From positions 1-46,088 of the forward strand of contig NYYQ01000007.1 in assembly GCA_002686855.1 (NCBI GenBank): a stretch of 46,088 nucleotides of DNA, read 5' to 3'. The position numbers were made by a program, and so were the translations under genes. The DNA comes from Candidatus Woesearchaeota archaeon (GTDB taxonomy: Archaea; Nanobdellota; Nanobdellia; Woesearchaeales; GW2011-AR4). The notes beneath the pieces are model-generated. The model was not told the DNA's origin. It saw only the letters and a list, made by a program, of their open reading frames with translations, and ran no database searches. Positions within the stretch are counted from its first letter, which is position 1. The number at the start of each line of letters is the position of its first letter. Below are positions 3,493-42,376 of this stretch, in pieces.

Positions 3493-4787
3493 GTTATTTT
3501 TTCTTCTTTAATCTTATTTTTATCATTGCTTGTCTTAGAATAAAGTCTCATTGCGCAATACTCTGGACCGCACATGCTGCAGAAATCAGCATCAAGGTTT
3601 AAATCAGACCTTATTCTTCTTGCTTCTTCCGGGTCTAAAGCTAAACTAAACTGTTTTTCCCAGTCAAAATTAAATCTTGCTTTGCTTAATTCATCATCTC
3701 TGTCTCTGGCATTAGGAATTCCTTTTGCAATATCAGCAGAATGAGCAGCTATCTTATATGCAATAATTCCCTGTTTTACCATCTCAGGAGTTGGCAATCC
3801 TAAATGTTCTGCTGCAGTAACATAACAAAGAAAGTCAGCGCCATGCATTCCTGCTACTGCTGCGCCTATTGATGATGTTATATGGTCATAGCCTGGAGCA
3901 ATATCAGTAACCAAAGGACCTAAAACATAAAATGGAGCATTATGGCAATATTTTTTCTCTAACTCAACATTTAACTTTATTTCATTTAATGGAATATGAC
4001 CTGGGCCTTCTATCATAACTTGGCATTCTTTTTCCCATGCCTTTAATGTTAGCTGCCCAAGTATTTTCAATTCTGCAATCTGGGACTTATCTGTTGCATC
4101 ATGCAGGCAGCCAGGTCTTAGGCCATCTCCTAGAGAAAAAGCAACATCATATTTCCTAAAAATATCGCATATTTGCTCAAAATGAGTATACAATGGATTT
4201 TCTTTGTTATTGGCTTTCATCCATCTGATAAGTATAGCTCCTCCTCTGCTTACAACTCCTATAAGCCTTGTTTTTAATAAAGGCAAAGTTTTTTGCAAAA
4301 CACCAGCATGTATTGTCATGAAATCAACACCTTGCTTTGCCTGCAGTTCTATTATATCCAGCCAATCATCCGGTTTTAAATTTTCAATTGTATTGTTTTC
4401 CTCAACAACTTGGTAAGTGGGTACAATTCCAATAGGCATACTCGATTCATTAATTATTGCTTCCCTTATCTCATTTAGATTTCCTCCAGTACTTAGATCC
4501 ATAACAGTATCTACACCATATTTTTTGCATAACTTTACTTTTTCAAGCTCTTCTTTGATACATGCTCTTATTTTTGATGCTCCTACATTTGCATTTATCT
4601 TGGTTTTAAGACCTTTGCCTATTGCAACAGGCTTTAGATTCTTATGATTCAAATTAGCAGGTATTACAATAGAGCCTTGCGCTATTCTTTGCCTTAGAAG
4701 TTCAACATCAATATTCTCAACAGAAGAAACATATTTCATCTCTTTTGTTATTGTCCCTTGTCTTGCATAATGAAGTTGTGTTGCCAT
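3489..4787 (-). CDS. thiC: phosphomethylpyrimidine synthase
   Basis: [21 protein letters not shown]-terminus, C-terminal [11 protein letters not shown] Fe-S motif; start trimmed to ATG 4787. Confidence 0.9.
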
Positions 4788-4839
4788 AAGAAACAGGGTT
4801 TTCCCCTTATTTTTAAATTTGTTGTTTAATAAAAATAAC

Positions 4840-4863
4840 TTCAAACTCTTTCTTCCAGAACAT
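4840..4863 (-). pseudogene. short remnant of the purB 3' end (FWKKE...)
   Basis: rc reads TTCTGGAAGAAAGAGTTTGAAGTT versus the intact purB tail TTCTGGAAGAAGGAATTGGAAATA; 12-nt core ttcttccagaac (4850-4861) identical to 7019-7030 and 8732-8743. Confidence 0.4.
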
Positions 4864-4868
4864 AATAA

Positions 4869-5942
4869 TCAATCTAATAAACCTTTAGGCAGAAAATCAA
4901 ACTTATAGTCTTTTAATACCATCAAGGTCATATGTGATTCAATAATGTCATAAAATTTGTTTCTTATTTCTCTTAATAGAGTATTGAAATGTAAAGGGTC
5001 CTTGGCAAATATGTAAACTTCAAAGTCATATCTTCCTGTTGTTTCAAGAACAAAGGCAGTTTCTTCATGAAAATTAAAAAAGCTTTCAAACATTTTTCTT
5101 TTTTCAGCATCAACATGAGGCAAAAGCTGAAAGAATGATATATATCCATGGTAATGCAAATAAGATGCATTAATAATAGTTCTAAACGCCAATATAATTT
5201 TGTTTTCTGTTGATTTTTTTATTCTATGTTTTACAGTATCAACTGATAGTCGGGATTTTTTTGCAATGTCAACTATTTTAGCATTAGCATCATTTGATAA
5301 AATTTTTAATATTTTCAGAGCTTGTTCATCTAAATTAATATCTTGTTTACCAAGTCCAACCTTATTATTTCCAAAATTTTCTCCATATGCAAAATAGGTT
5401 TTTAAAGAATTTACATCAATTTTCAATTCTTTATAAAAGCTCTGAGGCAAAGTTTCATATTTGTTTAAGCTAATTATGGGCATAGTTTCATAATTCTTTA
5501 AATTACCTAAACATTTTGTTTTTATTTCTTTCATCAGCATATCAAAATGTTTTACATCTTTGGATAAAATATTAATTGCAAAATCCCACTCTCCGGAGCA
5601 TTGACCAAACCAAATTATAAATGGGTGATTAATAAAAAATTCAATTATTTTTTTCTCTTTTTCTTCATTTATATTTTCCAGCCTTAATAAGATAGTATAT
5701 GGTGTGAAGAAAATAAAAGGGTTAACTATAAGCAAATTTTTTCTAATTACATCTTTTTCTTTTAGTTTTTGAATCCTGTATCTTATTGCATCTTTGGATA
5801 ATCCAACAATTTTTGATAAATGAGTTGGAGAAATCCTTGAATTTTTAGCCAAAGCAGCTAAAATCTTCTTGTCTTTAACATCTATCTTTATATCCTTGCC
5901 ATAATCTAGTTCAAATATCACGCCTTTGTATTTTTCTTCCAT
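4869..5942 (-). CDS. tandem (duplicated) Lrp/AsnC-type transcriptional regulator
   Basis: Two AsnC-type HTH segments (KILAALAKNSRISPTHLSKIVGLSKDAIRYRIQKL and ALKILKILSNDANAKIVDIAKKSRLSVDTVKHRIKK), each followed by a RAM-like half. Confidence 0.6.
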   Translation of the reverse strand: MEEKYKGVIFELDYGKDIKIDVKDKKILAALAKNSRISPTHLSKIVGLSKDAIRYRIQKLKEKDVIRKNLLIVNPFIFFTPYTILLRLENINEEKEKKIIEFFINHPFIIWFGQCSGEWDFAINILSKDVKHFDMLMKEIKTKCLGNLKNYETMPIISLNKYETLPQSFYKELKIDVNSLKTYFAYGENFGNNKVGLGKQDINLDEQALKILKILSNDANAKIVDIAKKSRLSVDTVKHRIKKSTENKIILAFRTIINASYLHYHGYISFFQLLPHVDAEKRKMFESFFNFHEETAFVLETTGRYDFEVYIFAKDPLHFNTLLREIRNKFYDIIESHMTLMVLKDYKFDFLPKGLLD

Positions 5943-21400: not shown

Positions 21401-21919
21401 ATGGAAAGAGAAGCTATTACATTACCAAAATTAACTATAGATCAATTAGTAGAATTAGGAGCCGACCATGATAGTATGGTTACTCCCACTAGTAGTATCT
21501 ATGAAATTGATCCACTAGCAACACAACTAGGAACTAGAATTAAGGAAAAACTTAGTGATGGAACAATACAAGACAGAAAAAGACTCCTAAGAGTACTTCC
21601 AAGAATAGCTAATGAAGTGATTCAAAATGCAATTGAACATGGTAATGAGTTAGATCCTTCAAAACAAATTCATGCTTATTTTCTTTGGCAAGAGCATGGT
21701 TCTGGTAATGCATTGATGTATATTGCTGTACAAGATGAAGGCAAAGGCTTTGATGTAAATAGATATAGACTAAAAAATCCTAAACATGGTGGAGAAGCGC
21801 TGCCTTGGGCAAGAGAAATGTTTGATCATATTTATAATTTTGGAGATCCTGCAGTTTACATGGCTCAAGTCATAAGAAGAGATGGTGCAAAACCAATTGT
21901 AGTGGAAAAAGGTAGCTAA
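21401..21919 (+). CDS. stand-alone GHKL/HATPase_c-like protein (anti-sigma-factor-kinase-like)
   Basis: N-box EVIQNAIEHGN and G1-like VQDEGKGFD; TATA TTTATAAAGG about 25 nt before ATG 21401. Confidence 0.5.
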   Translation: MEREAITLPKLTIDQLVELGADHDSMVTPTSSIYEIDPLATQLGTRIKEKLSDGTIQDRKRLLRVLPRIANEVIQNAIEHGNELDPSKQIHAYFLWQEHGSGNALMYIAVQDEGKGFDVNRYRLKNPKHGGEALPWAREMFDHIYNFGDPAVYMAQVIRRDGAKPIVVEKGS

Positions 21920-23108
21920 ATAACCTCCCCAACCAGATAAATAGAGCCAGCAACAACAACTAAATCTCTTTTCCCTGCATTTTTTTTTGCATATTCTAAA
22001 GCTTTTTTTGAATTTTTAATAATAATTGAATTTTTAAAATATTTTTTTATATCTTTTATTTTGGCTGCTCTTTCATTATTTGCTTCTGTCAATATAATTT
22101 TATCCGCTTTTATTATCTTTGATATAGCTTTAACATCTTTATCTTTAGAAAAACCCAAAACCGCAATTAACTTATTGTATCTTAGATTTTTTAATTCATG
22201 AAATAAACCCCTAAATCCAGCTGGATTATGGGCAACATCAATCAACACATTCTTCCTCAATTCAAACCTTCCAGGCCATTTTACATTCTTTAATCCATTT
22301 TTTATATCCTTTTTATTAATTTTAATTCTTTTATTTTCATTTAGAATTTCCAATGCTTTTATTGCAATTGCTGCATTTATTAATTGAAAATTTCCTTTCA
22401 GGCCTGATTTTATATTTTCATCATTGTTTTTTTCATTTATTGATGTTTTTTCATTTTTTAATGGCGCCATTATTCTTGAATTTTTTTTAATGGCTATTTT
22501 TTTATTGTTTTCAAAGCAACACCTTTTGCTCCTGTTACAACCGGAACATTATTTTTTATTATTCCTGCTTTCTCATAGGCAATCTTTCTTAAACTATTGC
22601 CTAAAAACTTCTTATGCTCATGCGCAACATTGGTTATGATTGAAATCAACGGTCTAATAACATTAGTCGAGTCCAGTCTTCCACCCATTCCCGTCTCCAA
22701 AACAACAAAATCAACCTTTTTATCATAAAAATAAAGAAACATCATAGAGGTTGTTATCTCAAAAAAACTTTGGTTTGTAGCATGTTTTTTAACTTTAAGA
22801 TAATATTCAACTATCTCTTTGTCAGTAATTAATTTATCATTTATCCTGATCCTTTCATTGAATTTCTTTAAATGGGGGCTTGTATACATCCCAACATTAT
22901 ATCCAGCCTCTTGCAGTATAGAAGAGATCATAGCGCAAACAGAACCCTTTCCATTAGTCCCAGCAACATGAATGTACTTTAGCTTTTTTTCTGGATTGCC
23001 TAATTTCTTAAGAAGTAACTTCATATTTTTTAATCCTAATTTAAACTTCCATTCAGGCATACCATAAAGTTCTTCCAACACTTTGTTATAGTTCATAAGG
23101 AAAAGCAA
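21916..23108 (-). pseudogene. folC: folylpolyglutamate/dihydrofolate synthase interrupted by a frameshift at an A7 run
   Basis: N-part 22494..23108 (HVAGTNGKGSV P-loop), C-part 21916..22470 (NFQLINAAIAIKALEIL, PGRFE). One extra A in the run at 22497-22503 gives a continuous ...TIKKIAIKKNSRIMAPLK... Confidence 0.75.
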
Positions 23109-23840: not shown

Positions 23841-24049
23841 CTATAACTTAATTAGTTAGCTAGTATACATACTTTATGGGAGAAAAAGTCAGATTGTGCA
23901 GGTTTCAAAATGATGAAGATTTATGGTAGATTGTTTCCCAATATTATCTGTGCAACAAAGCAATGAAAAAAGTCTTTTAAAATAATGTTAGCATTAATTA
24001 GTGATTACTATTGGAAAACCTTTTAAAACCAATATATATCCTAATAATT

Positions 24050-26953
24050 ATGGAGTTAGAAAGGATAGTGCATAACATTAACTGGGAAGAAATTCACTCA
24101 CATACTTCTGCAGATTTTGATTCAGATTCATTATTCGGAGAAGAACCCAAAGAATATAATGGATTTAAAAAATCTCTAAAAACTTTAGATGCTGGTTTGT
24201 TTAAAAGAAGCAAATTATATAGAATATTGAATGATGCCTTTGATGAAGACATAAATTTTTCTTTAGAAAGAGATGGGGTTTTTGAAGTTACATCCGGTTC
24301 AAATAAAATAGGAACACTTACTTTTAGTGATGTGGGTTATGAAGTGAATTACTTAGGACTGATTGGACCTGAACAAGAAGCAACTAGTTCTCATTGCGCT
24401 AAAGACGTTGATACTGATGAGACTCCTTTTGCTTTAAATGATATATATTCGATGGCTGTTCTGCATTTTAATCTAAAAAAACTTGGAAAAATTTCAGATT
24501 TTAAAACTCAAGAAAAAATCTTAGATGTTTTTGATAGTTCTCGGGAAATAAGTGCATTTTATGCTAATGACCTAGTAAATTTAGCTAAAATTGCAGAAAA
24601 CGTTGGTACTGAAACATTTAGCGAAATAGTTACCGGGTTAGGGGAATATATTGCTTCTGATTGGGCAGTTTATTCCCTATACCAGGTGACGAGTCCTGAA
24701 AATTATTTTGGTTCACATTTCGATCTTGAAAATTTAGACTGGGATTTACTAGTCAAAGTAGCTACATTGCCAGATAGGATTCAAGGAAGTCAAATGAATC
24801 TAAAAAATCCAGTTGAAGTAAACCATCCTGAATTAAATGAAGATGATTCACCTGCATTTACTCCTTTAGAAATAATTCTCAATTTGAATGATTTAAAGGA
24901 TATGCCATCTGAAATAAGAAACAGATCTATAGAAATTTTTAGAAATTTTTTAGAAAGAGATTTTTATAAACAGACTTTCTATCAAGGCTTTTCTTATTTT
25001 ATGAAACAAAGATTAAATCTAGATAATGAGGTAATATTGTCTGGCTATCTTGATTTTATAGAAGGATTAACTAAATATGAAAATTCCAAGATTGAGCCAA
25101 TACTCACTGCACTTTATAATAATCCAAGAACAATAAATATAATTAAGTCATTAAGTGAAGAATTTGAACCGGAAACACATCAGGAAAAAATTGATGAATG
25201 TCTTTCTTTATTGACAAGCCATGATTTCGCCAATAAACTTATCTTCTTAGATGAAAATTTATCTTTTAATTATGAATCTCCTACGGATAAATTAGATTAT
25301 ATTATTGCATGTATTCAAAGTGCGGTAAGAGATCCAGATATATCTGAAGATGATCCAATTAATTATCCTGACAAAATTTTAAGATTCATTGGTGAAGCTA
25401 AGAAATACGGGCCAAATGTTACTAGAACTTTATTATCCTGCCTTTATTCAGATAGAAGGACTATGGAGGCAAATGATTTTTTACAACAATATGTTACTAG
25501 CGAGGATGTCAATATTTCAATAAAAGCAACAGATTTATTTAAAGCACTTGGTGAAAAAAGTAAGAATAAAGATGAAAAATGGAATTTTGTTTTAGGTAAA
25601 TTGAGATCAACTGATAAAGGACTTTCTGAAGAAGATTTGGATTATCTTATAATTAAATGCAAATTTATTAATAAGGGTTTTGAGGGCTTAATTGGTAATG
25701 ATGGAGAAGGGATTAGTTCAATCAGACGCGTTTTATCTGAACAACTTGGAGCTAAGTATGCTGGAGGCAAATTGGTTGAATTGCCATATTACGATTTATT
25801 TGGATTGACAATCGCAACTGGACAAGTTATAAATGAATTTGATAAAAATGTAAATTATTTAATGGGGCAAGCAATAAAATACGGTTCAATACCTAACTTT
25901 TTAAGAAAAGATCCTAATGCATCAAGAGTTATTGGGATGTTAGAAGATCATGGGTATGATCCTTCTTTTTTTGTAAGCAGCGGAACATTAATTAATTTTA
26001 GCAAGAGGACAGATGGGCATGCAAGACGATGGGAAGATTCCCTCAAAAGCCTGGTGTCTCTTTATACAGGAGAAAATGGAGAAGATCCAAAAGTTTCTAT
26101 CCATAAATTTTCCCCAAAAACTGCCTTAAGGGCGATTTCAGAAAGTTATCCTGCTGCCTTGCGTGGAGATAAGGATGCTGCTAAAAAAGTAGTCAATTAC
26201 TTTTTAAGTGAAGTAAATAAAAGGATAGAAAAAATTGGAAGAACTCCAGCATTAGAAGAAGTTACCGATAGGTTTGATGGATTGCTTGGCCAGATCGATG
26301 GGATTAACTTAGAATTATCAGAACACATTGAAGCAAGAATTTGGGAACGAAATGTTCCTGAATGCTTTTATGATAATCACAGATTGAGTTGCTGTGTTTT
26401 TTTCCCAAAAGGTGCAGAAAAATATAGCATACCTCTTATGACTATGGATCCACAAACCAGCATAATAGAATATTGGGTAGGGGGAATGGATGAATTTGCA
26501 GGTGTTTCTACTCTATTTGCAGGAAAAAATAAAACATTGTTGATGGACACTTGGGAAGCTGGCGAAGCTGTCTATTCTGTTTTGAGCAGTAAACAAACCA
26601 GGAAATTTGCATTAGATTCAATAGTTCTTGCTACAGACAGGGCAATTGTGGGTCCTTCTGAAGATAAAACTTTAATAATTCATAATTGCACCTATGGAAG
26701 ACCATTAGAATTAGTTGCTTATGTTAGGGAACTTTCTTCAAGGTCAGATTCGATAAGGTTTGAAGAAAAAAGGCATTTTGAATTAGTAGATGGAAATGGA
26801 ATTGCATTAAAAAATTCCCAATCAGAAAGAGAAACTCATGGCTCAGGAGCTTTTAGGTCAAAAAAAATGATAGGCCACATTCCAGTATTTGCAGTAAATG
26901 TAGGAATGTACAAGCAAGAATTCTTGCCTAATGTCAGGAAAAAAGCTGCATAA
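24050..26953 (+). CDS. large hypothetical protein (about 967 aa ORFan)
   Basis: Uninterrupted long ORF, acidic, no TM or known motif recognised; ATG 24050 preferred to TTG 24011. Confidence 0.6.
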   Translation: MELERIVHNINWEEIHSHTSADFDSDSLFGEEPKEYNGFKKSLKTLDAGLFKRSKLYRILNDAFDEDINFSLERDGVFEVTSGSNKIGTLTFSDVGYEVNYLGLIGPEQEATSSHCAKDVDTDETPFALNDIYSMAVLHFNLKKLGKISDFKTQEKILDVFDSSREISAFYANDLVNLAKIAENVGTETFSEIVTGLGEYIASDWAVYSLYQVTSPENYFGSHFDLENLDWDLLVKVATLPDRIQGSQMNLKNPVEVNHPELNEDDSPAFTPLEIILNLNDLKDMPSEIRNRSIEIFRNFLERDFYKQTFYQGFSYFMKQRLNLDNEVILSGYLDFIEGLTKYENSKIEPILTALYNNPRTINIIKSLSEEFEPETHQEKIDECLSLLTSHDFANKLIFLDENLSFNYESPTDKLDYIIACIQSAVRDPDISEDDPINYPDKILRFIGEAKKYGPNVTRTLLSCLYSDRRTMEANDFLQQYVTSEDVNISIKATDLFKALGEKSKNKDEKWNFVLGKLRSTDKGLSEEDLDYLIIKCKFINKGFEGLIGNDGEGISSIRRVLSEQLGAKYAGGKLVELPYYDLFGLTIATGQVINEFDKNVNYLMGQAIKYGSIPNFLRKDPNASRVIGMLEDHGYDPSFFVSSGTLINFSKRTDGHARRWEDSLKSLVSLYTGENGEDPKVSIHKFSPKTALRAISESYPAALRGDKDAAKKVVNYFLSEVNKRIEKIGRTPALEEVTDRFDGLLGQIDGINLELSEHIEARIWERNVPECFYDNHRLSCCVFFPKGAEKYSIPLMTMDPQTSIIEYWVGGMDEFAGVSTLFAGKNKTLLMDTWEAGEAVYSVLSSKQTRKFALDSIVLATDRAIVGPSEDKTLIIHNCTYGRPLELVAYVRELSSRSDSIRFEEKRHFELVDGNGIALKNSQSERETHGSGAFRSKKMIGHIPVFAVNVGMYKQEFLPNVRKKAA

Positions 26954-31250: not shown

Positions 31251-32099
31251 TCAACTCCTCAAGAGATCTTGGAATAAAAGCTCGTACAATTTCCTTTCTG
31301 CATTAGCTGCCCTCCGACTATCTAATAGGATCAGTGATTCATCTAATTCTTCTGCAACTTCTTCATCTAAATGTGAGTTCCAGTATAGAGCCCTATTTCC
31401 ATCTGTTCCAGGAGTAGTTGCAAACAAATGATCTGCTCCGCCAATAGGTAAAACTATGTGCCCGGGTAAGGTCACTGAATTTGGATAAGAGATAAGTGTT
31501 CCTGTCTTCTCTGAACTACCTACTCCATATATAATTCCAACTTGAGGTTCCCTCTCCTTTCCGGCAAATTTCCCTAAATACCGATTTCCAGTCCATAATG
31601 CAACTCCTAATGGAGTCTCAAGACCATAAATATTACCCTCGGCATTTAGTTCACTCTGGAACTCAGCATACTCCTTTCGACTAACACCCGCAAAAGCCAA
31701 GGCTTCTGACCCTTGATCAATATTACACCTCATACTTCTTACAGTTGCTTTTTTGATATCTGGCACCCCATTTTTGTCTCGAGCAACTAGAATCAAACCA
31801 GCACGATTCCTGGAAGGGTCATTATTAACAACAGATTCAACAGTATCTTCCAAATCATCCATTCTTACTTGACCGGTTATAGTAGCAGGAGCACTGTATA
31901 ATCCTTCTCTTAGAGATACGTCAAACTTATCACTACAATTACCTGGGTAAGTAGTTGTTACCATCGCCTGATGCCCATAAAAAATATGCTGCTGTGCATC
32001 AGAACCGGCTGCTAATACTACAACGTACGGGATAGATTGTCCCTTTACTATGCTAGACCTCTTGAATGCTATAGATACTGGATTGTTTGCTCCTACCAT
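31251..32099 (-). CDS. hypothetical protein (ORFan, G+C-richer)
   Basis: Long ORF; TATA TTTATAAAG about 30 nt upstream of ATG 32099; no motif recognised. Confidence 0.5.
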   Translation of the reverse strand: MVGANNPVSIAFKRSSIVKGQSIPYVVVLAAGSDAQQHIFYGHQAMVTTTYPGNCSDKFDVSLREGLYSAPATITGQVRMDDLEDTVESVVNNDPSRNRAGLILVARDKNGVPDIKKATVRSMRCNIDQGSEALAFAGVSRKEYAEFQSELNAEGNIYGLETPLGVALWTGNRYLGKFAGKEREPQVGIIYGVGSSEKTGTLISYPNSVTLPGHIVLPIGGADHLFATTPGTDGNRALYWNSHLDEEVAEELDESLILLDSRRAANAERKLYELLFQDLLRS

Positions 32100-32147
32100 T
32101 TTCAATATCTTGAAAGGTCAAAGGTTTTCTTTATAAACTTTTCTATC

Positions 32148-39712: not shown

Positions 39713-41170
39713 TCAATTTATTTTCAATTTTTCTAACTGGACAACCAATTTCAAAAAAATCTTTCCTTCTTTAGTTATAGAGATAATAAACGGATTTTTA
39801 TTTACCCCTTTACCCTCAATTTTAACAAAATTTCCATATTGTTTTTTCCTTAAAGTGTCTAATATTGAATCTCTCCTTATTTCTAATAACTTAGCTAACT
39901 CATTAGCAGTGGAATTATTATTTTTATTAAGAACAGCTAGATGCTTAACCATAGTTTTTGTGAAACTATGATTCAAAAATCCATCAAAAGCTTTCTTCCT
40001 TCTTTCACTATGGACTCTAAATGGAATTATGTTATTGGATAATAAAATTTTGAAGAATGAATATAGATTATTCCAGCCTCCAATCACGAAAGTTTTATTT
40101 TGTTCTTCTTTAGCTAGTTTTGATATACTAGCCTTACGCAGTATTTTTTCAAAAAGTTCCTTTTCCTGTTTATTAAAACTTAAGGTAATTTTGTGTAGTC
40201 CTGATTTATTTAATTGTGCACCTCCTTCTGCATATAATAAGCCATTCAAGGCATGGAAAGAGTTTTTTTCATCTAATCCATTTATAATTTTGTCAAAAAC
40301 AAATCTGAATAACAGAGATAAGATTGTTTTGTCAATTATTATCCTTAAATTCCCTCTAGAATTAGTTTTTAAAGCCGATTTTGATGTTGTATAAAATTGC
40401 GGATTTTTCAAGTCCAATGTATCCTTCCAATATCTCTTCGAATAATCTTTTTTGTCTAGGTCAAATAATAATATCCTAGCTCTCCACAACTCTTTGGGTA
40501 TATTAAAAATATTCTCAAATCCATCAAAGACAAATTTATGTAGCTCTGGATTCTTATTAACGAAATATAATTTAGATTTATAATGACCATCTCCATGGAT
40601 TAAGAATAACAATTCTATCAATTTCGAAGAAGATTCAATAAATCTGGGTATGGTGATTGGAATTTTCTTTTTATAGTAAATTATAATAAAATCTTTCTGT
40701 CTTGGAATAATTTTAACATTTTTATCGTAATTTATTATTTGAGCTAAATCTATTCCCTTATTACAGCTAACTAAAGCTGTATTTTTGCCAACTATCTTTA
40801 TTAAAACCTTTTCATTATTTTTTATATCTAGAATATCCACAAAATTTTTGGGTATACGTAAAAGACCCCATTCATAAACTTGAGTTACAAACTCAAGTTC
40901 TTGCTTTTCTTTACAAATCCTTATTAAAACTATATCCTTTTCATTGATGTTTATTGATTTTCTAATTTTTAATGGAATCCTAATAAAAGGACGAAGTGTC
41001 TGAGTATTAATCTTAGCAAGAAATTCACATATCGATTTTTCTTTTTTGTAAAGGTTAACAAAATTAAATGAATTTATGATTTCTTTATAATAAATTCTTT
41101 TATCTTTTATTTCTAAGCAAGGTATATTTTTCTCTTCTTTTGTTAAATTTTTATTAAATATTGTTTTCAT
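39713..41170 (-). CDS. free-standing LAGLIDADG-like protein with AbrB-like N-terminal and wHTH C-terminal regions
   Basis: Two motifs about 118 aa apart: LLFLIHGDGHY and LNGLLYAEGGAQ; LLRIPKNFVDILDIKNNEKVLIKIVG (AbrB-like); STANELAKLLEIRRDSILDTLRKK (HTH). Confidence 0.55.
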   Translation of the reverse strand: MKTIFNKNLTKEEKNIPCLEIKDKRIYYKEIINSFNFVNLYKKEKSICEFLAKINTQTLRPFIRIPLKIRKSININEKDIVLIRICKEKQELEFVTQVYEWGLLRIPKNFVDILDIKNNEKVLIKIVGKNTALVSCNKGIDLAQIINYDKNVKIIPRQKDFIIIYYKKKIPITIPRFIESSSKLIELLFLIHGDGHYKSKLYFVNKNPELHKFVFDGFENIFNIPKELWRARILLFDLDKKDYSKRYWKDTLDLKNPQFYTTSKSALKTNSRGNLRIIIDKTILSLLFRFVFDKIINGLDEKNSFHALNGLLYAEGGAQLNKSGLHKITLSFNKQEKELFEKILRKASISKLAKEEQNKTFVIGGWNNLYSFFKILLSNNIIPFRVHSERRKKAFDGFLNHSFTKTMVKHLAVLNKNNNSTANELAKLLEIRRDSILDTLRKKQYGNFVKIEGKGVNKNPFIISITKEGKIFLKLVVQLEKLKIN

Positions 41171-41385
41171 TTGAAATCACAATTTTACTAAATGAAACGA
41201 TAGTAAATGGTTTTAGTTTTTAAACGAAAATCATAATTTAATTGTTGAATACGGCTGACGATTTTAAATGTAAAAAATAATTTAAAAATTTTTAGGGAGA
41301 AGTCATATAAATACCTTACGCACGAATGTCCAGTGGACGAAACATTATTAAAGTCACTATTAATCTTAAAAAAGGAGGTGGGCTA

Positions 41386-41617
41386 ATGAATAAAAATTTA
41401 TTACCTTTTGAAACAGTTAAAAGAAAAATCCTTGTAAAAAAAGAAGCAGAAACTGATGATAAATTAGGATGCAGACCAAAAGAAAGAAAAACAGAAGAGA
41501 TAATTAATTATGGTGTTGTTAATATAAACAAATGCCAAGGTCCTACTAGTCATCAGATAAGCGATTATGTTCAAAAAATTCTTGGAATAACAAAAAGTGG
41601 GCATTCGGGGACTCTAG
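41386..41617 (+). CDS. cbf5: tRNA/rRNA pseudouridine synthase Cbf5, exon 1
   Basis: GGAGGTG SD before ATG 41386; ...CQGPTSHQISDYVQKILGITKSGHSGTL then the first nt of the Asp codon. Confidence 0.8.
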
Positions 41618-41633
41618 AGTAAAAATCAGAGAA
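41618..41633 (+). other. candidate 16-nt bulge-helix-bulge intron in cbf5 mRNA
   Basis: Outer helix 41607-11/41635-39, central 4-bp helix 41612-15/41628-31, 3-nt bulges 41616-18 and 41632-34; cleavage after the second bulge nt restores GAT (Asp) and the frame. Confidence 0.6.
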
Positions 41634-42376
41634 ATCCCCATGTCCATGGTGTTTTGCCAACAGCATTAGGCCGTGCAACAAGAATTGTGCAAACTTTGCT
41701 TACTTCTGGAAAAGAATATGTTGGAATTATGCACTTGCATAAAGATATTGATGAAAAAAAGCTAAAAGAAACAATAAAAAAGCATTTTGTAGGAAAGATA
41801 AAACAATTACCCCCCATAAAAAGCGCAGTAAGAAGACTATTAAGAACAAGAGAAATTTATTATTTTGATATTCTTGAAAAAGAAGGACAGGATGTTTTGT
41901 TTGTTGTTGGATGCCAAGCGGGAACTTACATAAGAAAATTAATTCATGATTTAGGACAGAAATTAAAAGTTGGAGCGCATATGCAGGAGCTTAGAAGAAC
42001 AAAAGCAGGACCATTCAACGAAGAAACAATTTTTTCATTGCAGGATTTAACTGATGCATTTTATTATTATAAAAAAGAATCAAATGACAAATTCTTAAGA
42101 AAAATTATACAGCCAGTAGAAAATGCTATAACACATTTACCCAAAATATGGGTTTTTGATAATGCTATTGATACAATTTGCCATGGAGCTTCTTTAAATA
42201 TTCCAGGAATTTCAAAATTAAATGATAAAATAGAGCCAGAGCAAACAGTTGCAATCATGACACTAAAAGATGAATTAATAGCATTAGGAACCTCAAAACT
42301 GAATTCTGAGAAAATATTAAAACAGGAAAAAGGCTTAGCAGTCAAAACAGATAAGGTTTTTATGGAGATAAATTAA
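41634..42376 (+). CDS. cbf5: Cbf5, exon 2 (TruB core and PUA domain)
   Basis: (D)PHVHGVLPTALGRATRIVQTLLTSGKEYVGIMHLH..., GTYIRKLIHDLG, ELRRTKAGPF; PUA-like C-terminus. Confidence 0.8.

What the first reader, a model, noticed from the sequence alone, without database searches (positions are those of the whole stretch)
41607..41639. cbf5 is split inside the catalytic GTLDP codon by 16 nt with bulge-helix-bulge geometry: candidate protein-gene intron
ORFs 41326..41622 and 41654..42376 are the N and C parts of Cbf5 in different frames. The first ends SGHSGTLE*, and the second frame reads NPHVHGVLPTALGRAT. As RNA, GGGGA (41607-11) pairs with UCCCC (41635-39) and CUCU (41612-15) pairs with AGAG (41628-31). 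That leaves AGA (41616-18) and AAA (41632-34) as 3-nt bulges on opposite strands, 4 bp apart, which is the substrate geometry of the archaeal tRNA splicing endonuclease. The distal helix is weak (relaxed form). Cutting after the second nt of each bulge removes 41618..41633 and joins CUA G|AU CCC. This gives GTL-D-PHVHGVLP, restoring both the frame and the catalytic Asp and matching Cbf5 consensus GTLDPKVSGVLP. BHB introns in cbf5 pre-mRNA are documented in Crenarchaeota (Watanabe et al., FEBS Lett 2002). This genome looks very different (AT-rich, DPANN-like) and the element is minimal in size.
Basis: partly seen in the sequence, partly recalled or inferred. Interest (0 to 1): 0.85.

Follow-up and report, generated by a model that had tools for sequence, protein, structure and literature searches.

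The report
Spliced mini-intron in archaeal cbf5 gene
A 16-base intron of the type cut out by the archaeal tRNA-splicing enzyme splits the catalytic aspartate codon of the pseudouridine synthase gene cbf5 in a marine DPANN (Woesearchaeota-like) archaeon, at exactly the nucleotide where the only well-known archaeal protein-gene intron sits in distantly related Crenarchaeota.

Summary
cbf5 is split at 41617/41634. Removing 41618-41633 restores the frame and the GTLDP motif, and the product aligns without a gap to Pyrococcus Cbf5 (E 8e-110).

The RNA can form a long exon-exon helix, a 4-bp central helix (CUCU:AGAG) and two 3-nt bulges (AGA, AAA). The inner helix is only 1-2 bp, so this is the relaxed bulge-helix-loop form.

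It is not an artefact. Six contigs from six separate assemblies were read and carry the identical intron; 16 contigs encode the identical C-terminal ORF.

It is not a pseudogene. Twelve further distinct DPANN cbf5 genes carry 14-22-nt insertions at the same nucleotide, with intact exons. The central helix is paired in 13/13 sequences, and all four Watson-Crick pair types occur at the Thr-wobble position. Synonymous exon sites are biased towards pairing (Gly GGG 12/13 vs 7/78, p = 2e-9).

Crenarchaeal cbf5 introns lie between letters 1 and 2 of the same Asp codon. Two that I fetched show the same register.

Closest relatives (about 80% identity) lack the intron, and its distribution is patchy.

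Splicing itself and the EndA type could not be tested.

Verdict: a real BHB-type pre-mRNA intron. It is a new member of a known kind in a new superphylum, with no report found in the searched literature.

The parts
41374..41379 (+). Shine-Dalgarno-like GGAGGT 6 nt upstream of the probable cbf5 start codon
   Evidence: Read directly from the sequence. The alignment to solved Cbf5 structures begins within a few residues of the N-termini of both proteins (query residue 5, chain residue 9).
41386..41617 (+). cbf5 exon 1: Met1 to Leu77 plus the first letter (G) of the catalytic Asp78 codon. The ORF is also open from an upstream ATG at 41326.
   Evidence: Pfam DKCLD and the start of TruB_N. Colinear alignment to 2aus_C.
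41618..41633 (+). 16-nt intron AGUAAAAAUCAGAGAA. It contains an in-frame UAA at 41620-22. Removing 41619-41634 gives the same mRNA.
   Evidence: Removal restores the frame and GTLDP. The same site is interrupted in 12 other distinct DPANN cbf5 genes. The intron is identical in the 76%-identical L073. It is single-copy in the window.
41634..42376 (+). cbf5 exon 2: letters 2-3 (AU) of Asp78 through to the stop codon. Covers the rest of TruB_N, TruB_C_2 and PUA.
41597..41611 (+). 5' strand of the exon-exon outer helix. 41597-41604 pairs with 41640-41647. UC at 41605-06 is bulged. GGGGA 41607-11 pairs with UCCCC 41635-39.
   Evidence: MFE folds. The four pairs next to the central helix are 96% paired in 13 sequences. 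Gly GGG codon bias.
41612..41615 (+). Central 4-bp helix, exon strand: CUCU (Thr76 positions 2-3 and Leu77 positions 1-2). Pairs with AGAG 41628-31.
   Evidence: 100% paired in 13 distinct sequences. Pair types at the Thr wobble are CG:6, UA:3, AU:2, GC:2.
41616..41618 (+). 5' bulge AGA. Predicted cut after G41617.
   Evidence: Register fixed by relatives with bulges AGC/AUA, where only a cut after nt 2 gives GAU. The rule that the cut falls between bulge nt 2 and 3 is from PMC2738675.
41619..41627 (+). Inner element: closing pair G41619:C41627 around a 7-nt loop UAAAAAU. This is a vestigial inner helix (relaxed, bulge-helix-loop form).
   Evidence: The closing pair in this register is a standard pair in 13/13 sequences, with three types. 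Energies.
41628..41631 (+). Central 4-bp helix, intron strand: AGAG.
41632..41634 (+). 3' bulge AAA. Predicted cut after A41633.
   Evidence: Present in the MFE fold. Bulge is A[AUG]A in all 13 sequences.
41635..41647 (+). 3' strand of the exon-exon outer helix (UCCCC + AUGUCCAU).

Best explanation
Bases 41618-41633 are a 16-nt archaeal bulge-helix-bulge (BHB) type intron, in its relaxed bulge-helix-loop form. [quoted passage not shown]

Proposed mechanism:
1. After transcription, the end of exon 1 (codons Gly-His-Ser-Gly-Thr) pairs with the start of exon 2 (Asp3-Pro-His-Val-His).
2. The Thr/Leu codon bases CUCU pair with AGAG near the 3' end of the intron.
3. That leaves AGA and AAA as 3-nt bulges on opposite strands, 4 bp apart.
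4. The tRNA-splicing endonuclease EndA cuts after the second nucleotide of each bulge.
5. An RtcB-type ligase joins ...CUA G to AU CCC..., creating the GAU codon and a 324-aa active Cbf5.
6. Unspliced RNA terminates at the UAA inside the intron and lacks the catalytic Asp, so Cbf5 production depends on EndA.

Shown: the sequence, the structural potential, family-wide covariation, exon synonymous-site constraint, and presence in independent assemblies.
Inferred: the cleavage and ligation themselves, and the enzymes that do them.
For: 1. Removal restores the frame and GTLDP. The product aligns without a gap to solved Cbf5 structures (E 8e-110) and carries DKCLD, TruB_N, TruB_C_2 and PUA.
2. Local folds are more stable than shuffles (z = -3.3).
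3. Six contigs from six separate assemblies were read (L028-L033). All carry the identical intron and differ from the window at only one synonymous site in the gene. One search counts 16 contigs encoding the identical 240-aa C-terminal ORF.
4. Twelve further distinct DPANN cbf5 genes carry 14-22-nt insertions at the same nucleotide, and all four whose full spliced ORF was checked are full length.
5. On the fixed-register alignment A2, 96.9% of cells are paired, against 32-57% when partners are slid. The central helix is 100% paired, with four Watson-Crick types at one pair and two at another. None of 500 shuffles reaches the observed score.
6. Intron-bearing genes have Gly GGG in 12/13 vs 7/78 (p = 2e-9), Leu NNA in 13/13 vs 40/78, and Asp GAU in 13/13. 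Their exon-exon duplexes are stronger (-17.3 vs -10.4 kcal/mol, p = 3e-6).
7. Window and L073 are 74.6% identical in DNA across the gene, but 94% across the BHB region and 16/16 in the intron.
8. Crenarchaeal cbf5 introns, which are experimentally spliced by EndA, lie at the same codon position and follow the same cut rule (PMC2738675). L114 and L115 fold into canonical BHBs in the same register.
9. Without RNA splicing the window has no GAU next to CCC (it reads AAU CCC). Frameshifting or bypassing therefore cannot restore the catalytic Asp.
Against: - There are no transcript data. No spliced-form protein at 90% identity or more appears in the 5.8-billion-protein collection (the best hit is 82% identical), although that collection would rarely contain such a product.
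- The window's inner helix is only 1-2 bp. The MFE structure shows a 1-nt rather than a 3-nt 5' bulge, so a strict-specificity EndA might not cut it.
- No EndA or RtcB gene lies in the window. The enzyme type is unknown.
- The statistical tests treat related sequences as independent.
Confidence: 0.9

Rival explanations
1. Pseudogene: cbf5 was inactivated by a 16-nt insertion and is decaying.
For: The catalytic codon is destroyed and the frame is shifted. The closest relatives have an uninterrupted gene.
Against: - Both halves are intact.
- Thirteen divergent lineages keep an insertion at the same nucleotide, with compensatory pairing and biased synonymous sites.
- The intron is 100% conserved at 25% gene divergence.
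- By established knowledge, Cbf5 is near-universal in archaea.
Confidence: 0.03
2. Sequencing or assembly artefact: the 16 nt are not in the real genome.
For: None beyond the a priori possibility in metagenome assemblies.
Against: - Six contigs from six separate assemblies, with SPAdes-style and MEGAHIT-style contig names, were read and carry the identical insertion. One search counts 16 contigs with the identical C-terminal ORF.
- These contigs represent a strain slightly different from the window (7 mismatches per 6.7 kb).
- The same intron occurs in L073, a different species.
Confidence: 0.01
3. Translational recoding: ribosomal frameshifting or bypassing across the 16 nt, or two separate polypeptides that assemble without RNA splicing.
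For: The two ORFs are adjacent and in different frames. The stable hairpin could in principle stimulate recoding.
Against: - No contiguous GAU precedes CCC in the window (AAU CCC) or in L020 and L022 (UAU CC), so any recoded or split product lacks the catalytic Asp.
- Insertion lengths of 14, 15, 16, 19, 20 and 22 nt give all three frame relations.
- Every intron carries an in-frame stop codon.
- The covariation matches BHB geometry exactly.
Confidence: 0.03
4. The element is removed at the RNA level by something other than EndA, for example self-cleavage or an unknown nuclease.
For: EndA was not found in the window. The 5' site sits in a loop rather than a clean bulge.
Against: - 14-22 nt is too short for any known ribozyme intron.
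- The geometry, the cut register and the host gene are those of the EndA-spliced crenarchaeal intron.
- DPANN EndAs carrying the L3 loop are associated in the literature with more disrupted tRNA genes and a proposed broader specificity (PMC5829648).
Confidence: 0.03

Closest known systems
cbf5 pre-mRNA BHB intron of Crenarchaeota (Desulfurococcales and Sulfolobales; Watanabe et al. 2002; Yokobori et al. 2009, PMC2738675)
   Same: - Same host gene.
- Same insertion point and phase (between letters 1 and 2 of the catalytic Asp codon).
- Same topology: the Thr/Leu codon bases form the exon strand of the 4-bp helix, followed by the 5' bulge, with the 3' bulge just before the Asp3-Pro helix.
- Same cut rule (after bulge nt 2).
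- Overlapping size range (16-44 bp there, 14-22 nt here).
- Often relaxed BHB, and patchy distribution with inferred losses.
- Direct comparison with L114 (27 nt) and L115 (23 nt): GGGA CCCU AGA/UGA ... GGGG AAA, against GGGA CUCU AGA ... AGAG AAA in the window.
   Different: - The host is a mesophilic, marine, AT-rich DPANN (Woesearchaeota-like) archaeon, not a hyperthermophilic crenarchaeon.
- The inner helix is vestigial in the window.
- The expected EndA is a DPANN type rather than the crenarchaeal (alpha-beta)2 type with the L1 loop.
- Splicing has not been demonstrated here.
- Common ancestry with the crenarchaeal intron is not established.
Archaeal tRNA and rRNA BHB introns processed by EndA and RtcB
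   Same: Two 3-nt bulges separated by 4 bp. Cleavage after the second bulge nucleotide. Size within the tRNA-intron range (11-175 nt, PMC2738675). Relaxed hBH/BHL variants are known.
   Different: This one lies in a protein-coding mRNA. Both exon strands are also constrained by codons, and there is no tRNA body to assist recognition.
Haloferax volcanii HVO_1309 mRNA, cleaved by EndA (PMC7714728, as summarised in PMC10485636)
   Same: An EndA-dependent BHB in an archaeal mRNA outside the Crenarchaeota.
   Different: A different gene and position, with no relation to a catalytic codon. It is a euryarchaeon with an alpha'2 enzyme.

Membership tests
Archaeal BHB (EndA-substrate) intron | Two 3-nt bulges on opposite strands separated by a 4-bp helix | tested here: met
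   CUCU:AGAG lies between AGA and AAA. The helix is 100% paired, with compensatory changes, in 13 distinct sequences.
Archaeal BHB (EndA-substrate) intron | Flanking outer and inner helices (strict hBHBh') | tested here: inconclusive
   The outer helix is strong (5 + 8 bp). The inner helix in the window is only G:C, or GA:UC in the MFE, so this is the relaxed BHL/hBH form. Relatives L022 and L020 have 4-5-bp inner helices, and L022 gives a canonical MFE BHB.
Archaeal BHB (EndA-substrate) intron | Cutting after nt 2 of each bulge gives a functional joined product | tested here: met
   It restores GAU and the frame in the window and in all 12 other distinct sequences.
Archaeal BHB (EndA-substrate) intron | The genome encodes EndA (of a type that accepts relaxed motifs) and RtcB | not testable with these tools
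   Neither is among the window ORFs of 120 aa or more. The rest of the genome is not available.
Archaeal BHB (EndA-substrate) intron | The intron is actually excised and the exons ligated in vivo | not testable with these tools
   No transcript data. No spliced-form protein at 90% identity or more in the protein collection.
cbf5 pre-mRNA intron (as defined in Crenarchaeota) | Located in cbf5 between letters 1 and 2 of the catalytic Asp codon | tested here: met
   The window junction is G|AU. L114 and L115 were checked directly.
cbf5 pre-mRNA intron (as defined in Crenarchaeota) | Length 16-44 bp | tested here: met
   16 nt in the window. DPANN relatives extend the range down to 14 nt.
cbf5 pre-mRNA intron (as defined in Crenarchaeota) | Host in Desulfurococcales or Sulfolobales | tested here: not met
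   Best hits and related loci are Woesearchaeota/Nanoarchaeota MAGs. The window has 32% GC.
cbf5 pre-mRNA intron (as defined in Crenarchaeota) | Common descent of the intron sequence | tested here: inconclusive
   The bulges (AGA/AAA) and the register are the same. The shared positions are all structurally or coding constrained, and the introns are too short for a homology test.

The most novel reading that the evidence does not exclude
The Asp-codon intron of cbf5 is not a crenarchaeal oddity. One possibility is that it is an ancient archaeal feature, older than the DPANN/TACK split and lost many times. The other is that this site is a recurrent, site-specific target for gain of BHB introns, because the Gly-Thr ... 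Asp-Pro codons supply a ready-made outer helix.

In either case it may be retained because it makes Cbf5 synthesis depend on EndA, coupling pseudouridylation capacity to tRNA and rRNA processing. The in-frame stop codon present in every intron would then prevent synthesis of a catalytically dead, dominant-negative Cbf5.
Probability: 0.3. Interest if true: 0.8.

Novelty: new member of a known kind. Interest (0 to 1): 0.62.

Why it matters
- **Known range.** For more than 20 years the cbf5 intron has been the textbook example of pre-mRNA splicing in Archaea. [quoted passage not shown]
- **Wider range.** Finding the same intron, at the same nucleotide, in mesophilic DPANN archaea widens that range to a second superphylum.
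- **Structural evidence.** This set supplies sequence-only covariation support for an archaeal mRNA BHB.
- **Origin question.** The patchy distribution (Fitch minimum of 11 gain or loss events among 88 sequences) makes ancient inheritance versus recurrent site-specific gain testable.
- **Annotation.** These genes are currently annotated as two fragments or as 'partial', and 14-15-nt in-frame versions are invisible to frame-based checks. DPANN annotations therefore undercount intact Cbf5.
- **Enzyme prediction.** These lineages should have an EndA able to cut bulge-helix-loop substrates outside a tRNA context.

Tried and rejected
- **RNA genes in the window.** ARAGORN and Rfam (gathering threshold) found none.
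- **EndA and RtcB.** Pfam scans of the window ORFs of 120 aa or more, leaving out three overlapping ORFs, found neither.
- **tRNA introns in relatives.** A scan of 16 intron-bearing loci found one intronless tRNA-Met only.
- **Literature.** Searches for a cbf5 intron in DPANN, Woesearchaeota, Pacearchaeota or Nanoarchaeota returned no paper reporting one.
- **Spliced-form protein.** The best hit in the protein collection is 82% identical, so no cDNA-derived product is evident.
- **Neighbouring 485-aa ORF (39713-41170, minus strand).** I suspected a LAGLIDADG homing endonuclease related to the cbf5 intein of L026. There is no significant similarity (E 2.2) and no paralogy with ORF 800-2002 (E 0.22).
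- **Second split gene (Mur-ligase family, 21916-23108, minus strand).** I considered it as another intron. The break sits in an A7 run and looks like a 1-nt frameshift. A look-up of the ORF found nothing on record.
- **Short Cbf5 fragments on long contigs (L117-L120).** They are broken at other positions, and L116 has a 1-nt deletion. None is relevant to this site.
- **Repeated mobile element.** The 26-nt core is unique in the window. The intron sequence occurs only in cbf5 loci.

Full report
**1. Observation**

- ORF 41326..41622 ends ...KSGHSGTLE*.
- ORF 41654..42376 lies in another frame. That frame is open from 41618 and reads SKNQRNPHVHGVLPTALGRAT.
- Pfam puts DKCLD on the first ORF and the rest of TruB_N, TruB_C_2 and PUA on the second.
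- Deleting 41618-41633 gives one ORF. From the ATG at 41386, which is preceded by GGAGGT, it encodes 324 aa with GHSGTLDPHVHGVLP. Deleting 41619-41634 gives the same mRNA, because A41618 = A41634.
- The product aligns without a gap to Pyrococcus Cbf5 structures (2aus_C, E 7.8e-110...GHGGTLDPKVSGVLP...).
- The window has 32% G+C. It encodes ribosomal proteins S19e and L31e, FtsZ, an Lhr helicase and purine-synthesis genes.
- The best Cbf5 hits are marine 'Candidatus Woesearchaeota' proteins at about 80% identity.

**2. Structure in the window**

RNAfold on 41600-41646 and 41570-41680 gives these elements:
- GGGGA 41607-11 paired with UCCCC 41635-39.
- CUCU 41612-15 paired with AGAG 41628-31.
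- The 3-nt bulge AAA 41632-34.
- An outer extension 41597-41604:41640-47.

z is about -3.3, and 0-2 of 200 shuffles fold as well.

On the 5' side the MFE has a 1-nt bulge plus two pairs. The BHB reading has AGA bulged and G41619:C41627 closing a 7-nt loop. Energies are MFE -21.3, open bulge-helix-loop -19.0 and strict BHB -17.3 kcal/mol.

**3. Not an artefact**

One search counts 16 contigs that encode the identical 240-aa C-terminal ORF. I read six of them (L028-L033), from six separate assemblies including Tara Oceans data. All six show the 98-aa ORF, or its end where the contig is cut, upstream of the 240-aa ORF, and all carry the identical intron. They differ from the window at one synonymous site in the gene, and L028 differs at 7 sites in 6.7 kb, so they are a slightly different strain. 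The 26-nt core is unique in the window.

**4. A family of introns at the same nucleotide**

The genome scan returned 27 loci and the metagenome scan 80. Together with L028-L033 and the window, 89 had GHxGTL followed directly by DP, and these include the window's closest relatives. The following carried an insertion after the G of the Asp codon.

| Locus | Length (nt) | Intron sequence |
|---|---|---|
| window, L028-33, L073 | 16 | AGTAAAAATCAGAGAA |
| L103 | 15 | AGTAAAAACAGAGAA |
| L113 | 14 | ACTAAAAGAAGGAA |
| L070 | 15 | TGTTCTAACAAGGAA |
| L106 | 15 | TGTTTTAACAAGGAA |
| L095, L096 | 15 | TAAATTTTTGAGGAA |
| L109 | 19 | CGGTTTAGAGCCCAATGAA |
| L110 | 19 | CGGTTTAGAACCCAATGAA |
| L020 | 19 | CGAAATAATTTTCGAGGAT |
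| L112 | 19 | AGAATTAATCTTCAACGAG |
| L024 | 20 | TGGAATAAAAACCCAACGAG |
| L022, L111 | 22 | CGGTTAAAAAATAACCAAGGAT |

- The spliced ORFs checked (window, L020, L022, L024) are full length.
- L022 gives a textbook hBHBh' as its MFE structure.
- In L020 and L022 the bulges are AGC and AUA. Only a cut after the second nucleotide of each gives GAU, which fixes the cut register for the whole family. It matches the rule stated for Crenarchaeota.

**5. Covariation**

I joined fixed-length flanks around each intron with a constant AAAA linker in place of the variable inner loop.
- Left flank: 13 nt, then 4 nt of outer helix, 4 nt of central helix, the 3-nt bulge and 2 nt of inner helix.
- Right flank: the mirror image.
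- The register was set only by the coding-frame boundaries. The alignment is gapless (A2).

Results of the pair count:
- 96.9% of cells are paired, against 32-57% when partners are slid by 1-3 columns.
- None of 500 shuffles reaches the observed percentage paired or covariation score.
- The central helix is paired in 13/13 sequences.
- The pair formed by the Thr wobble base shows CG:6, UA:3, AU:2, GC:2. The Leu first base shows UA:10, CG:3.
- The pair that closes the 5' bulge is standard in 13/13, with three types. This supports the 3-nt-bulge reading for the window as well.

Caveat: the sequences are related, so the shuffle counts are not probabilities.

**6. Exon constraint**

Comparison of 13 intron-bearing and 78 intron-free non-redundant genes:

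| Feature | Intron-bearing | Intron-free | Test |
|---|---|---|---|
| Gly codon GGG | 12/13 | 7/78 | Fisher p = 1.9e-9 |
| Leu codon ending in A (first bulge base) | 13/13 | 40/78 | p = 5e-4 |
| Asp codon GAU | 13/13 | 55/78 | not tested |
| Pro codon CCC | 8/13 | 7/78 | not tested |
| Mean exon-exon duplex energy (kcal/mol) | -17.3 | -10.4 | Mann-Whitney p = 2.7e-6 |

Window and L073 are 74.6% identical in DNA across the gene. Across 41597-41647 they are 94% identical, which is the highest stretch of the gene, and the intron is 16/16 identical.

**7. Comparison with the known cbf5 intron**

From Yokobori et al. 2009 (PMC2738675):
- Cleavage falls between the second and third bulge residues, and most motifs are unconventional BHBs.
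- Sizes are 16-44 bp.
- The distribution is Desulfurococcales plus Sulfolobales, with secondary losses. Nanoarchaeum is intron-less.

I fetched two crenarchaeal loci:
- L114, 27 nt: GGGA CCCU AGA GC...GC GGGG AAA CCCC.
- L115, 23 nt: GGGA CCCU UGA AG...CU GGGG AAA UCCC.
- Window: GGGA CUCU AGA G...C AGAG AAA UCCC.

All three have the same register and topology, and both crenarchaeal loci give canonical MFE BHBs.

**8. Distribution**

On a rough NJ tree of 88 distinct Cbf5 proteins, the 12 intron-bearing tips are scattered, usually with intron-free sisters.
- Fitch parsimony needs at least 11 changes. A single gain would need 27 losses.
- Intron sequences resemble each other within subclades (L109/L110, L020/L022, L024/L112, window/L073/L103). 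This fits vertical inheritance with frequent loss.
- Recurrent gain or lateral spread is not excluded.

**9. Mechanism and rivals**

The best explanation is EndA cleavage at the two bulges followed by RtcB ligation. This creates the GAU codon (confidence about 0.9).
- Recoding cannot restore Asp. The window reads AAU CCC, and L020 and L022 read UAU CC. Insertion lengths cover all three frame relations.
- A pseudogene is contradicted by points 4-6 above.
- An artefact is contradicted by point 3.
- Every intron type has an in-frame stop codon. The product of shuffle probabilities is 2.5e-6 (the types are not independent). Unspliced RNA therefore yields only the N-terminal fragment.
- EndA type: the literature reports alpha4-type DPANN EndAs carrying an L3 insertion and associates them with more disrupted tRNA genes (PMC5829648). 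This genome's enzyme could not be examined.

**10. Novelty**

No paper in the searchable library links a cbf5 intron with DPANN lineages. A 2023 review still restricts it to a small group of related archaea. I therefore rate this a new member of a known kind in a new superphylum. Its interest lies in the identical insertion point, the patchy distribution and the unusually clean covariation.

Noticed in passing
L026:3529-4992 and L027:~3523-4950 (Nanoarchaeota MAGs): cbf5 in these two genomes carries an in-frame intein of about 488 aa. It starts C[LV]HPNTEI, has LAGLIDADG blocks LIASDGN and FDGDGT, and ends HNFLIETG[FY][IV]SSN|C. It lies between GTYIRKL and (C)HDIG, near residue 181 of the window protein. 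cbf5 is therefore a target of two different kinds of intervening element in DPANN.
   Followed up: partly
window 21916-23108 (- strand), break near 22494-22505: A Mur-ligase-family gene is split into a Mur_ligase_M ORF (22494-23108) and a Mur_ligase_C ORF (21916-22470) in frames one base apart. The break sits in an A7 run (ataaaaaaatagcc). It looks like a homopolymer frameshift (sequencing error, slippage or pseudogene) rather than a BHB intron. A look-up of the downstream ORF found nothing on record.
   Followed up: partly
All 12 distinct DPANN intron types (window 41620-41622 = UAA), plus L114 and L115: Every cbf5 intron contains a stop codon in the exon-1 reading frame, including the in-frame 15-nt introns. 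Shuffling the inner part gives per-intron probabilities of 0.16-0.66, with a product of 2.5e-6. This may be selection against read-through of unspliced mRNA into a catalytically dead Cbf5.
   Followed up: partly
window 41597-41647 vs L073:1712-1762: Two species whose cbf5 genes are 74.6% identical in DNA share a 16/16 identical intron and a 94% identical BHB region. On the NJ tree they are not sisters, and each groups with intron-free genes. The cause is either strong constraint or recent lateral transfer or gene conversion of the patch.
   Followed up: partly
window 39713-41170 (- strand), immediately upstream of cbf5: A 485-aa ORF with no Pfam family above threshold (a weak MazE/AbrB-like N-terminal hit only). 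It contains LAGLIDADG-like strings (LIHGDGHY, LLYAEGG) and is conserved next to cbf5 in the contigs that reach that far upstream (L028, L029, L031). It has no significant similarity to the L026 intein or to ORF 800-2002, which shows the same weak MazE hit.
   Followed up: partly
L116:1420-1450; L117, L118, L119: Other fragmented cbf5-like genes on long contigs. L116 (crenarchaeal, long-read-style contig) has a 1-nt deletion in the Pro codon after GTLD. L117 is broken near residue 66/70, and L118 and L119 near residue 223-231. None involves the Asp codon, and the causes are unknown.
   Followed up: no
window 24011-26953 (+) and 31251-32105 (-): A 980-aa ORF and a 284-aa ORF have no Pfam match at E <= 0.01.
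   Followed up: no
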